DNA from: Escherichia coli
Lineage (GTDB): Bacteria > Pseudomonadota > Gammaproteobacteria > Enterobacterales > Enterobacteriaceae
DNA: 64,000 nt
Reading direction: 5' to 3' (one strand)
Assembly (NCBI RefSeq): GCF_009931435.1
Contig: NZ_CP043415.1
Both the position numbers and the translations under genes were made by a program. Numbering within the stretch: the first letter of the stretch is position 1; every line of letters starts with the position of its first letter. Below, piece after piece: positions 9,134 to 10,598 of the stretch. The notes under the pieces are model-generated. The model did not search any database and was not told the origin of the DNA. It worked only from the letters and a program-made list of their open reading frames with translations.

Positions 9134-9727
9134 AGGGAGTGGTTAAAAGAGCAACGAGAAAGTGGTAATTATAACGCCAGCCGGATATGGCGGGAAATGG
9201 TGGCCCGGGGATTTACAGGCAGTGAAACCATCGTCAGGGATGCGGTTGCCAAATGGCGTAAAGGCTGGAACCCATCGGTTACTACTGCCGTCAGACTTCC
9301 TTCAGTGTCCCGGGTAAGCCGCTGGTTGATGCCCTGGAGAATAATCAGGGGTGAAGAAAATTATGCTTCCCGATTTATTAGTCTGATGTGTGAAAAAGAA
9401 CCGGAGCTGAAAATAGCGCAGCAACTGGTACTCGAGTTCTACCGTATTCTGAAAACCCAAAATAAATCACAGCTAAGCAGTTGGTTCACTCGAGTCCACG
9501 AAAGCGGTTCAGCAGAATTTCGGCGCGTGGCGGCGGGGATGGAAGCTGATGCTGCAGCTATATGTGAGGCAATCAGTAGTCGCTGGAGTAATGGTGTTGT
9601 CGAAGGTCATGTAAATCGCCTGAAGATGCTGAAACGCCAGATGTATGGTCGAGCAGGATTTGAACTACTCAGGCAGAGGGTAATGAGTCCACTGGCATGA
9701 AAATCTCCACCCAGGTTGCGGAAGAGC
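9134..9727 (+). pseudogene. ISL3-family element 3' fragment, copy 1 (transposase C-terminus)
   Basis: SNGVVEGHVNRLKMLKRQMYGRAGFELLRQRV is the ISL3-family C-terminal signature; the fragment ends GAAGAGCC (rc GGCTCTTC, an ISL3-type terminus) at 9727. Confidence 0.6.
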
Positions 9728-9749
9728 CACTATTGCACCGTTCGTGACA
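9728..9749 (-). repeat. remnant of an IS21/IS100-type terminal inverted repeat (left-IR type)
   Basis: ACTATTGCACCGTTCGTGACA equals the terminal 21 nt of the IS100 left IR seen at 6097-6117 (reverse complement). Confidence 0.6.
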
Positions 9750-10317
9750 TCAAATAAATCCCCCTGAAGCTGACTGGTTACTCCGGCAATACTCTCAAGT
9801 TTGGACATGATGTCATCTATTGCGGCTATATTATTAACAGGACGCTTCACCTGCGCGTAATAAACGCTACGGTGAATACCGAATAAATGACAAAGAACCC
9901 GCACTGGCCACTTTGCTTTCAGCCGTGTGATTAGCGCGACAGCTTCCCGGGGATTTAGCTCATCAGCACGGCAGTCTGCTTTAGTATTTCTTTTTCCATC
10001 TCAGGGCGCTTTATCTGCGCTTTAAGCTGCTGAATTTCGCGTTGTTCAGGAGTAATAGCATTACCAGCGGGCTCAATACCCTGAAGTTTCTGCTTATACA
10101 ACCGTATCCATTTACGCAAATGGTCAGGGGTGAGCTCAAGTACCAGCGCGACTTCTCTGACATCACGCTGGTATTTAACCACCTGTTCGATAGCTTCAAG
10201 CCTGAACTCCGGGGAAAAGGTACGTTGAGTCCGACGGGGTTTGAGCATGCATCAACTCATTTTCACTGTTTTAACATTAACAGGATTTCGAGGAGTCCTG
10301 AATTACCGATCCACTAC
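9750..10317 (-). mobile_element. IS3-family element fragment (orfA plus start of orfB)
   Basis: 97-aa OrfA and OrfB N-terminus with IS911-like motifs; truncated at ~9750. Confidence 0.55.
9955..10248 (-). CDS. IS3-family transposase OrfA
   Basis: 97 aa; ITPEQREIQQLKAQIKRPEMEKEILKQTAVLMS resembles the IS911 OrfA leucine-zipper end. Confidence 0.6.
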   Translation of the reverse strand: MLKPRRTQRTFSPEFRLEAIEQVVKYQRDVREVALVLELTPDHLRKWIRLYKQKLQGIEPAGNAITPEQREIQQLKAQIKRPEMEKEILKQTAVLMS

Positions 10318-10577
10318 ACAGCCAAGCAGCTGGTTCACTCGAGTCCACGAAAGCGGTTCAGCAGAATTTCGGCGCGTGGCGGCGGGGATGGAAGCCGATG
10401 CTGCGGCTATATGTGAGGCAATCAGCAGTCGCTGGAGTAATGGTGTTGTCGAAGGTCATGTAAATCGCCTGAAGATGCTGAAACGCCAGATGTATGGTCG
10501 AGTCGGATTTGAACTACTTAGGCAGAGGGTCATGAGTCCACTGGCATGAAAATCTCTACCCAGGTTGCGGAAGAGCC
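10318..10577 (+). pseudogene. ISL3-family element 3' fragment, copy 2
   Basis: ~96% identical to 9468-9727, same GAAGAGCC terminus. Confidence 0.6.
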
Positions 10578-10598
10578 ACTTTTCATCCGTTGTTGACA
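10578..10598 (+). repeat. remnant of an IS21/IS100-type terminal inverted repeat (right-IR type)
   Basis: ACTTTTCATCCGTTGTTGACA matches the IS100 right IR at 8032-8052 with one mismatch. Confidence 0.6.

What the first reader, a model, noticed from the sequence alone, without database searches (positions are those of the whole stretch)
9468..10598. Two ISL3-family ends abut IS21/IS100-type inverted-repeat remnants at the same offset
Two ~96%-identical copies of the last ~260 bp of an ISL3-family element (9468-9727 and 10318-10577) both end in GAAGAGCC. Each is followed immediately by the terminal 21 nt of an IS21/IS100-type inverted repeat: 9729-9749 matches the IS100 left IR (as at 6097-6117, inverted) and 10578-10598 matches the IS100 right IR (8032-8052). 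The junction lies at the same position, ~22 bp from the IR tip, in two different IR types. This looks like sequence-specific insertion of an ISL3-family element into IS21-family terminal repeats, comparable to IS1111-type elements that target Tn21 IRs, rather than a simple segmental duplication.
Basis: partly seen in the sequence, partly recalled or inferred. Interest (0 to 1): 0.6.

Follow-up and report, generated by a model that had tools for sequence, protein, structure and literature searches.

The report
ISL3 element that homes into IS100 ends
The two repeats are the right ends of ISEc38-type insertion sequences, a group that preferentially inserts at one fixed position inside the terminal repeats of IS100-like (IS21-family) elements and usually ends up enclosed by only the 21-nt tips of the element it invaded.

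Summary
Window 9120-9728 and 10317-10577 are 3' fragments of two ISEc38-type ISL3 elements, 96% identical over the shared 261 nt. Each is followed by 21 nt that match the outer tip of an IS100 inverted repeat: IRL (21/21) after the first, IRR (20/21) after the second.

In about 110 distinct end contexts from E. coli, Klebsiella, Salmonella, Enterobacter, Citrobacter and metagenomes, about 95% of ISEc38-clade ends abut an IS21-family end repeat in the same register, immediately next to the GATCCAC motif. Relatives only 67-86% identical sit in the tips of their own local IS21 variants (21/21 matches).

Simple insertions with 8-bp duplications show the mobile unit is the 1722-bp core. These occur in IS100 IRL, in IS100 IRR, in another IS21 element, in an IS66 gene site that resembles the repeat, and in yehY. 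The preference is strong but not absolute.

The usual end state is tip-core-tip. It often keeps a 5-bp IS21-type duplication (15 sites), and only when one IRL tip is paired with one IRR tip. I read these as IS21 elements emptied in situ. Mobilisation by IstAB is a weaker rival.

I found no description of this in the searched literature.

The parts
6099..8052 (+). Intact IS100 (IS21 family, 1954 bp, istA + istB). It is inserted in an IS30 copy with a 5-bp target duplication GATAT (6094-6098 and 8053-8057). It serves as the reference for the IRL and IRR sequences.
   Evidence: I4; PGAP annotation of the identical plasmid NZ_CP065971.
6112..6126 (+). Unoccupied ISEc38 target in IS100 IRL (repeat L1): the 8-mer GCAATAGT (6112-6119) followed by GATCCAC (6120-6126).
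   Evidence: L187/L188/L190 carry the core exactly here, with an 8-bp duplication GCAATAGT.
8025..8039 (+). Unoccupied ISEc38 target in IS100 IRR (repeat R1): GTGGATC (8025-8031) followed by the 8-mer ACTTTTCA (8032-8039).
   Evidence: L096/L099 carry the core here with an 8-bp duplication ACTTTTCA. E. coli SMBL has the core after IS100 nt 1941.
9120..9728 (+). Copy 1: 3' fragment of an ISEc38 core (core nt 1113-1722, C-terminal part of the ISL3 transposase gene plus the right IR). It is truncated on the left by an IS3-family end.
   Evidence: (99.0% to unit nt 1134-1743 of L001).
9729..9749 (-). 21-nt tip identical to IS100 IRL nt 1-21, with its outer end pointing away from the core. It is the relic of the IS100 end into which the core was inserted.
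   Evidence: (I2).
10317..10577 (+). Copy 2: 3' fragment of a second, diverged ISEc38-type core (core nt 1462-1722).
   Evidence: 94-95% to both reference units; 251/261 to copy 1.
10578..10598 (+). 21-nt tip of IRR type (IS100 nt 1934-1954 with one mismatch, C to T on the + strand).
   Evidence: (D7).
8795..9119 (-). IS3-family fragment (orfA 5' part and left end). I recall it as IS911-like; this was not tested. It abuts copy 1 and truncates it.
   Evidence: (IS3 family transposase pseudogene at window 8795-9052) and the sequence.
9750..10316 (-). Another transposase pseudogene fragment lying between the tip of copy 1 and the truncation point of copy 2.
   Evidence: frameshifted transposase at window 9833-10248.

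Best explanation
ISEc38 and its close ISL3-family relatives are 1722-bp insertion sequences with a strong sequence-directed target preference. They insert into the IstA-binding repeats at the ends of IS100/ISSen3-type IS21-family elements. They duplicate the 8-bp A/T-rich linker that lies between the outer GC-rich block and the inner GATCCAC block of a repeat. Most insertions are in the terminal repeats L1 and R1, and some are in the inner repeats L2 and R2.

An insertion splits the repeat and leaves 21 nt of the IS21 tip outside the core. When both ends of one IS21 element are hit in the same orientation, the IS21 body between the two cores is lost. This would happen by homologous recombination between the cores, or equivalently by an intramolecular jump to the other end. 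The product is tip-core-tip, still flanked by the 5-bp duplication made by the original IS21 insertion. Later recombination between copies shuffles tips and flanks.

The window holds the right-hand ends of two such units, one with an IRL tip and one with an IRR tip. Each was later truncated by other IS elements. They lie beside an intact IS100 that has not been hit.

Shown: the termini, the 8-bp duplications, the fixed register, the recurrence in diverged relatives and IS21 variants, and the shuffling by recombination. Inferred: the two-hit-plus-deletion route to tip-core-tip, and the recognition determinant.

Sub-confidences: targeted insertion about 0.85; in-situ hollowing as the origin of tip-core-tip about 0.6.
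For: Identity of the element. name it: NCBI annotates identical proteins as ISEc38. Searches give the Pfam hits PF01610 (DDE_Tnp_ISL3) and PF14690.

Tips accompany the core. Full-length copies in thousands of E. coli genomes align exactly over core plus both 21-nt tips.

The core is the unit that moves, making 8-bp duplications:
- IS100 IRR, ACTTTTCA (L096).
- IS100 IRL, GCAATAGT, with the IS100 interior continuing beyond (L187/188/190).
- A 67%-identical relative in another IS21-type IRR, ATTTTTAC (L169).
- IS66 tnpC, CTGAAAGT followed by GATCCGC (L207).
- yehY, GAAAAAAT (L206).
- An otherwise complete IS100 with the core after nt 1941.

Inner-repeat sites are also used, always just before GATCCAC or GATCCAG: L115, L117, L124, L128, L158 and L160-163.

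A Klebsiella relative (73% DNA identity) has tips 21/21 identical to IRL and IRR of a Klebsiella ISSen3-like element that is 82.6% identical to IS100.

Census. Of 111 distinct end contexts, 102 are IS21-type and 4 more are degraded tips.

Tip-core-tip units with a 5-6-bp duplication number 15. All of them pair one IRL tip with one IRR tip: 15 of 29 such units, against 0 of 11 units with two like tips (Fisher p = 0.003).

Recombination between copies is visible. L116 joins the left flank of the L090 site to the right flank of the L091 site. One left flank occurs with three different right sides.

The IS21-family literature fits. Insertions make 5-bp repeats, each end repeat is CS1 plus an AT-rich spacer plus CS2, and IstA needs two complete repeats per end in vitro, so 21-nt tips should be inert (PMC10122671).
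Against: - No element with cores at both ends of one IS21 copy (the predicted intermediate) was seen.
- Single insertions in otherwise intact IS100 are rare in complete E. coli genomes: 0 and 1 of 5,426 for two junction types.
- No genome with IS100 at the exact site of the widespread L090 composite was found.
- All six duplication-bearing composites with near-identical ISEc38 cores have the same core orientation, and two of them are in one genome. Transposition of the whole unit would also produce this. However, all three single insertions in IS100 share that orientation too.
- The sample of contexts is not a random sample of insertion events. It mixes old inherited copies with recent ones.
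- The specificity is not absolute (yehY).
Confidence: 0.7

Rival explanations
1. Hitch-hiking. Once formed, tip-core-tip units are mobilised in trans by the IstA/IstB proteins of a resident IS100-type element acting on the 21-nt tips. On this view most of the 5-bp duplications are new IS21-type insertions of the 1764-bp chimera, not relics.
For: - There are 15 sites with 5-6-bp duplications.
- Six sites with near-identical cores all have the same orientation, and two of them are in the RSHH22 chromosome.
- The predicted in-situ intermediates are rare or absent.
- No IS100-occupied allele of the L090 site was found.
- Composite sites and a bona fide IS100 insertion cluster in the same region of IS66-family tnpA genes.
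Against: - IstA needs two complete repeats per end in vitro, whereas the tips hold less than one and lack the CS2 block (PMC10122671).
- IstA can use two identical ends in vitro, yet 0 of 11 units with two like tips has a duplication.
- At least 7 structurally different duplication-bearing composites (different IS21 variants, inner or terminal sites, both orientations) must have formed independently anyway.
- The orientation bias is also present in the single insertions.
Confidence: 0.2
2. The 21-nt tips are integral ends of a longer, 1764-bp ISL3 element, and the resemblance to IS100 is incidental or ancient.
For: Most full-length copies align over exactly 1764 nt. A 73%-identical relative also aligns end to end, tips included.
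Against: - 8-bp duplications lie directly against the 1722-bp core in five independent insertions, two of them with no tips at all.
- Identical cores carry all four tip combinations.
- The tips match the local IS21 variant 21/21, while the cores differ by 14-33% in protein sequence (about 27% in DNA for the Klebsiella relative).
- Inner-repeat junctions extend the flank to 46-56 nt of contiguous IS21 end sequence.
Confidence: 0.03
3. A local segmental duplication of one ISL3-end/IS100-tip junction within this plasmid, followed by divergence. Alternatively, IS100-type elements inserted next to ISL3 ends (the reverse direction of targeting).
For: The two copies are direct repeats 849 nt apart.
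Against: - The tips differ at 6 of 21 positions, exactly as IRL differs from IRR, while the cores differ by only 4%.
- Each arrangement recurs in unrelated genomes.
- The IS100 sequence is the interrupted partner, and it is IS100 sequence that is duplicated (8 bp). IS100 is therefore the target, not the insert.
Confidence: 0.02

Closest known systems
[quoted passage not shown]
   Same: - An insertion sequence homes to a fixed position inside the terminal inverted repeat of another, unrelated transposable element.
- Off-target insertions occur at chromosomal sequences that resemble the repeat. IS5075 does this in ureC (PMC8269217). Here the parallel is the IS66 tnpC site CTGAAAGT-GATCCGC.
   Different: - The transposase is of a different type: DEDD there, ISL3-type DDE here.
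- IS4321/IS5075 insert in one orientation and make no duplication (my recollection of Partridge and Hall 2003, cited in PMC8269217). Here there are 8-bp duplications and both orientations.
- The target is an IS21-family element, not a Tn3-family element.
- Here the invaded element is commonly reduced to two 21-nt tips.
Canonical ISL3-family insertion sequences (ISL3, IS1165, IS31831, ISPpu12 and others)
   Same: - A single transposase with PF01610 and a zinc-ribbon domain.
- Imperfect terminal repeats beginning GGCTCTTC.
- 8-bp target duplications, often in A/T-rich sequence. The family properties are from my own knowledge.
   Different: I know of no ISL3-family member described as targeting the ends of another IS. 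None turned up in the literature searches.
IS100 / IS21 family
   Same: The 21-nt tips are IS100 (or ISSen3-like) terminal sequence. The 5-bp duplications around tip-core-tip units have the IS21-family length.
   Different: The units lack istA and istB, the CS2 block of the terminal repeat and the second repeat. They are remnants of IS21-family elements, not members.
Non-autonomous derivatives moved in trans (MITEs, mobile insertion cassettes)
   Same: Short terminal repeats of one element enclose unrelated cargo, with that element's duplication length outside.
   Different: The cargo is itself an autonomous IS of another family. The retained ends are shorter than the known IstA requirement, and trans-mobilisation is not shown.

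Membership tests
ISL3 family (the 1722-bp core; window 9120-9728 and 10317-10577 are fragments) | Transposase with the DDE_Tnp_ISL3 domain (PF01610) and an N-terminal zinc ribbon (PF14690) | tested here: met
   Precomputed Pfam hits for the identical full-length protein and its relatives. The window fragments are 99% and 95% identical in DNA to that gene's 3' part. No new Pfam job was run.
ISL3 family | Terminal inverted repeats at the element boundaries | tested here: met
   The left end is GGTTCTTCCGCAACTTGGGTGGA and the reverse complement of the right end is GGCTCTTCCGCAACCTGGGTGGA. That this matches the family's GGCTCTTC consensus is from my own knowledge.
ISL3 family | 8-bp target-site duplication | tested here: met
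   ACTTTTCA (L096), GCAATAGT (L187), ATTTTTAC (L169), CTGAAAGT (L207) and GAAAAAAT (L206).
ISEc38 (named element) | Identity to the ISfinder reference sequence | not testable with these tools
   Only NCBI's label 'ISL3-like element ISEc38 family transposase' on identical proteins is available. ISfinder itself, including any note on its insertion site, could not be consulted.
IS21 family / IS100 (window 6099-8052) | istA and istB genes, terminal repeats containing direct repeats, and a 5-bp duplication | tested here: met
   PGAP annotation of the identical plasmid. IRL and IRR are found (I4). The repeats L1/L2 and R1/R2, with GATCCAC or GATCCAG, are read. The duplication is GATAT.
Substrate for IS21-family IstA (the tip-core-tip unit) | Two complete direct repeats (each CS1 + spacer + CS2) at each end | tested here: not met
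   The tips are 21 nt (CS1 + spacer only). CS2 (GATCCAC) is replaced by the ISL3 end. The requirement comes from PMC10122671 and was determined for IS5376, not IS100.
IS1111-type elements that target terminal inverted repeats (IS4321/IS5075) | DEDD (IS110-family) transposase | tested here: not met
   The Pfam hits are PF01610/PF14690, not PF01548/PF02371.
IS1111-type elements that target terminal inverted repeats (IS4321/IS5075) | Insertion at one fixed position in the terminal repeat of another transposable element | tested here: met
   The same register next to GATCCAC is seen in 102 of 111 distinct end contexts and in several IS21 variants. This is a functional resemblance only.
IS1111-type elements that target terminal inverted repeats (IS4321/IS5075) | Single insertion orientation relative to the target repeat | tested here: not met
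   Relative to the repeat's tip-to-interior polarity, the left end faces the tip in L187 and L207, and the right end faces the tip in L096, L169 and L220.

The most novel reading that the evidence does not exclude
The tip-core-tip units are dual-ended chimeras that two unrelated transposition systems can move. The ISL3 transposase would act on the inner ends, making 8-bp duplications and homing to IS21 ends. IstAB of a resident IS100-type element would act on the outer 21-nt tips, making 5-bp duplications at near-random targets. The ISL3 element would then both destroy IS21-family copies and ride on their machinery.
Probability: 0.2. Interest if true: 0.75.

Novelty: new variant of a known kind. 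Interest (0 to 1): 0.6.

Why it matters
An insertion sequence homing to the ends of another mobile element is known for IS1111-type elements and Tn21-family transposons. I found no report of an ISL3-family clade doing this to IS21-family elements.

If the explanation holds, three things follow.
1. It explains a very common annotation puzzle in E. coli, Klebsiella and Salmonella genomes and plasmids: short 'IS100 IR remnants' beside ISL3 transposase genes. It also shows that ISEc38 boundaries should be drawn at 1722 bp.
2. It shows one IS family inactivating and erasing copies of another by splitting the IstA-binding repeat. This is a form of conflict between mobile elements that could limit IS100-type expansion.
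3. It provides a natural, compact target (an 8-bp A/T-rich linker next to GATCCAC) for studying how ISL3 transposases, which are poorly understood mechanistically, choose targets.

Tried and rejected
- **Genome-contig scan.** The scan for the ISL3 end pattern CCARGTTGCGGAAGARCC returned only chance matches in unrelated phyla and no enterobacterial copy.
- **Literature.** ISEc38 appears only in lists of mobile elements. I found nothing on its ends or targets.
- **Tips as part of a 1764-bp element.** Considered. Rejected after the tip-less and single insertions with 8-bp duplications.
- **A pre-existing 42-44-bp 'mini-IS100' as the target.** Rejected because tip-core-tip has no 8-bp direct repeat at the core boundaries.
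- **Insertion into an IS21 circle or tandem junction.** Rejected because that would place the tips facing inward, whereas they face outward.
- **IS100-occupied allele of a composite site.** Only a neighbouring insertion was found, 27 nt away in a paralogous IS66 copy, so the test was uninformative.
- **Three junction probes joined with N spacers.** This worked for two probes. The ranking could hide full matches to the third (core left end facing the IRL interior), so that junction type remains uncounted.
- **Resemblance between the ISEc38 end and the IS100 sequence it replaces (8/14 at IRL).** Judged too weak to support a claim that the element targets sequences like its own ends.

Full report
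**The observation**

The window carries an intact IS100 at 6099-8052. It has istA and istB and a 5-bp target duplication GATAT, and it is inserted in an IS30 copy.

Downstream lie two direct repeats (family D1). BLAST against an intact element shows what they are. Window 9120-9728 is the last 609 nt of an ISEc38-type ISL3 core, 99.0% identical to the reference. Window 10317-10577 is the last 261 nt of a second, diverged copy, about 95% identical. Over the shared 261 nt the two copies match at 251 positions.

Both end in GCGGAAGAGCC, and each is followed by 21 nt of IS100 terminal sequence. Positions 9729-9749 are the reverse complement of IRL nt 1-21 with no mismatch. Positions 10578-10598 are the last 21 nt of IRR with one mismatch. 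Nothing similar is expected by chance.

**What the element is**

NCBI labels identical proteins 'ISL3-like element ISEc38 family transposase'. The protein carries PF01610 and PF14690.

In other plasmids, intact copies have 21-nt IS100 tips on both sides, with the tips pointing outward. Full-length copies in thousands of E. coli genomes align over exactly core plus tips, 1764 nt. This raised the possibility that the tips belong to the element.

Five independent simple insertions rule that out. Each places an 8-bp duplication directly against the 1722-bp core.
- L096/L099: GTGGATC-ACTTTTCA|core|ACTTTTCA-TCCGTCGTTGACA, in an IS100 IRR.
- L187/188/190: TGTCACGAACGGT-GCAATAGT|core|GCAATAGT-GATCCACACC..., with the IS100 interior continuing beyond.
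- L169: a relative of 67% protein identity, with duplication ATTTTTAC, in the IRR of another IS21-family element.
- L207: IS66 tnpC, with CTGAAAGT followed by GATCCGC.
- L206: yehY, with GAAAAAAT.

In addition, E. coli SMBL has IS100 nt 1-1941 intact, followed directly by the core. GAAGAGCC is therefore the true terminus, and the core is the unit its transposase moves.

**Target preference**

I collected copies by four routes: exact-protein look-ups, a metagenome scan with a transposase alignment, and annotated records.

After removing duplicates, 111 distinct end contexts remained.
- 91 abut a terminal-repeat tip.
- 8 abut an inner repeat (L2 or R2), with 46-56 nt of contiguous IS21 end beyond it.
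- 3 are the interior side of a simple insertion.
- 9 are 'other'. Four of these are degraded tips.

The junction is always immediately before GATCCAC, or its variants GATCCAG and GACCCAC.

The pattern holds in diverged relatives. A Klebsiella element 73% identical in DNA has tips TGTCAACAACGGGTAAAAAGT and TGTTACCAACGGTGCAAAACT. These match, 21/21 each, the IRR and IRL of a Klebsiella ISSen3-like element that is 82.6% identical to IS100. Salmonella, Enterobacter, Citrobacter and metagenomic relatives (67-86% protein identity) sit in the ends of their own IS21 variants, including two with quite different tips.

Counting distinct combinations of IS21 variant, site and core end, roughly 25 junction types exist. 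Many independent insertions into the same register are therefore required.

In the terms of the IstA structural paper, each end repeat is CS1, an AT-rich spacer of about 10 bp, and CS2 (PMC10122671). The ISL3 core duplicates the spacer and separates CS1 from CS2.

The IS66 tnpC off-target site resembles the IS100 R1 site (CTGAAAGT-GATCCGC versus TGAAAAGT-GATCCAC). This parallels IS5075's off-target site in ureC (PMC8269217). The yehY insertion shows that the preference is not absolute.

**How tip-core-tip arises**

All four tip combinations occur with identical transposases, three of them on one plasmid.

Fifteen units are flanked by a 5-bp duplication (apparently 6 bp in a few, as expected by chance): CAAGA, CCTCC, CCTCCG, ACACC, ACTGT, CCTCTG, GCAAG, ATACA, CTCTAT, GTTGA, GTTTC, ATGGG, AGAGC, ACACG and ATTTG. 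All 15 pair one IRL-type tip with one IRR-type tip. That is 15 of 29 such units, against 0 of 11 units with two like tips (p = 0.003). About 0.03 matches would be expected by chance.

Five base pairs is the IS21-family duplication length. The simplest reading is that each such unit marks a former IS21-family insertion whose body has been lost. The route would be cores inserted at both ends in the same orientation, followed by recombination between them, or an intramolecular jump to the other end. Either leaves the two 21-nt tips and the original duplication.

Both required single-insertion types are observed, and they are co-oriented: at IRL in L187, and at IRR in L096 and L220.

Recombination between copies is directly visible. 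L116 joins the left flank of the L090 site to the right flank of the L091 site. One left flank occurs with three different right sides. This explains the units without duplications and the units with two like tips.

**The rival for that step**

The alternative is that IstAB moves the 1764-bp chimera in trans. Points in its favour:
- The number of duplication-bearing sites is large.
- Six such units with near-identical cores all have the same orientation, and two are in one chromosome.
- Single insertions are rare in complete genomes.
- No double-insertion intermediate was seen.
- No IS100-occupied allele of a composite site was found.

Points against it:
- IstA needs two complete repeats per end in vitro.
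- IstA can use two identical ends in vitro, yet no unit with two like tips has a duplication.
- At least seven structurally different duplication-bearing units must have formed independently in any case.
- The orientation bias is shared by the single insertions.

I put in-situ hollowing at about 0.6 and a contribution from trans-mobilisation at about 0.2. The targeting itself I put at about 0.85.

**The window itself**

Copy 1 has an IRL tip on its right end, and copy 2 has an IRR-type tip on its right end. These are the two kinds of right end seen elsewhere.

Both copies are truncated on the left. Copy 1 is cut by an IS3-family end at 9119. Copy 2 is cut at 10317 by another transposase fragment. 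They are best read as remnants of two pre-formed units in an IS-rich stretch of a pVir68-like plasmid. They are not two insertions made at these spots.

The intact IS100 at 6099-8052 still has both preferred sites unoccupied: 6112-6126 and 8025-8039.

**Comparison and novelty**

The behaviour resembles that of IS4321 and IS5075, which home to Tn21-family terminal repeats. It differs in four ways.
- The transposase is an ISL3-type DDE enzyme, not a DEDD enzyme.
- There are 8-bp duplications, and both orientations occur.
- The target belongs to the IS21 family.
- The invaded element is typically reduced to two tips.

Six literature searches found no description of this. ISfinder could not be consulted. 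I rate the finding as a new variant of a known kind, of moderate to good interest to people who work on mobile elements and genome annotation.

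Noticed in passing
window 5617-8727: The intact IS100 (6099-8052) sits inside an IS30 copy. Fragments of that IS30 flank it on both sides, and the 5-bp duplication GATAT is intact.
   Followed up: partly
window 10578-10598: The IRR-type tip of copy 2 reads TGTCAACAACGGATGAAAAGT on the minus strand. It has the A of ISSen3-like IRRs at position 8 but is otherwise IS100-like, so it comes from an IS100 variant not present in the window.
   Followed up: partly
window 10300-10316: The fragment that truncates copy 2 ends ...ATTACCGATCCACTA, directly against the ISEc38 sequence. 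This is a GATCCAC motif next to an internal ISEc38 breakpoint. I could not tell whether it is a coincidence or the end of another element.
   Followed up: no
L207 899-2620 (E. coli SK6988) and hits H301-H310: The same ISEc38 insertion in IS66-family tnpC (duplication CTGAAAGT, next to GATCCGC) recurs on several plasmids and one chromosome. IS66-family tnpA genes also hold the L090 and L218 composites and a bona fide IS100 27 nt away (L209). IS66-family elements are therefore recurrent landing sites for both elements.
   Followed up: partly
L126 / L214 8941-11669: A nested arrangement. An IRL tip carrying a deletion is followed by core nt 1 to about 986, then an IRR tip, a full core and another IRR tip. 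The same CCTCCG lies at both outer edges, as in L097. This fits an IS100 that landed inside a core, was itself invaded, and was then removed by recombination.
   Followed up: partly
L001 678-1922 and 3819-5519: On the mouse E. coli plasmid, a tip-core-tip unit lies within the istA gene of an ISEc12-type IS21-family element, not at that element's end. A group II intron lies just downstream.
   Followed up: no
L095, L097, L114, L126, L128 (tips): Several tips carry internal deletions of 1-8 nt, for example ACTTTCCGTCGTTGACA and TGTCACGAATAGT. This suggests the tips are under no selection once the IS21 body is gone.
   Followed up: no
hits H342-H370, e.g. E. coli O104:H4 chromosomes: IS100-like ends lie only about 1.05 kb apart and are annotated 'IS21 family transposase'. 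This points to internally deleted IS100 derivatives that are widespread in O104:H4 and related strains.
   Followed up: no
L110 2501-4265 (Klebsiella IncFIB/FII plasmids, next to the ars and pco genes): The Klebsiella relative of ISEc38 has its transposase gene split into two ORFs of 271 and 265 aa. It is found at the same place in many plasmids, so it is an old, probably inactive copy.
   Followed up: partly
L091-L094, L137 and many others (E. coli chromosome, between zinc-ribbon genes and a ggt pseudogene): A pseudogenised tip-core-tip unit, about 95% identical to the reference, lies at one conserved chromosomal locus in roughly half of complete E. coli genomes. It accounts for most database hits to ISEc38.
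   Followed up: partly
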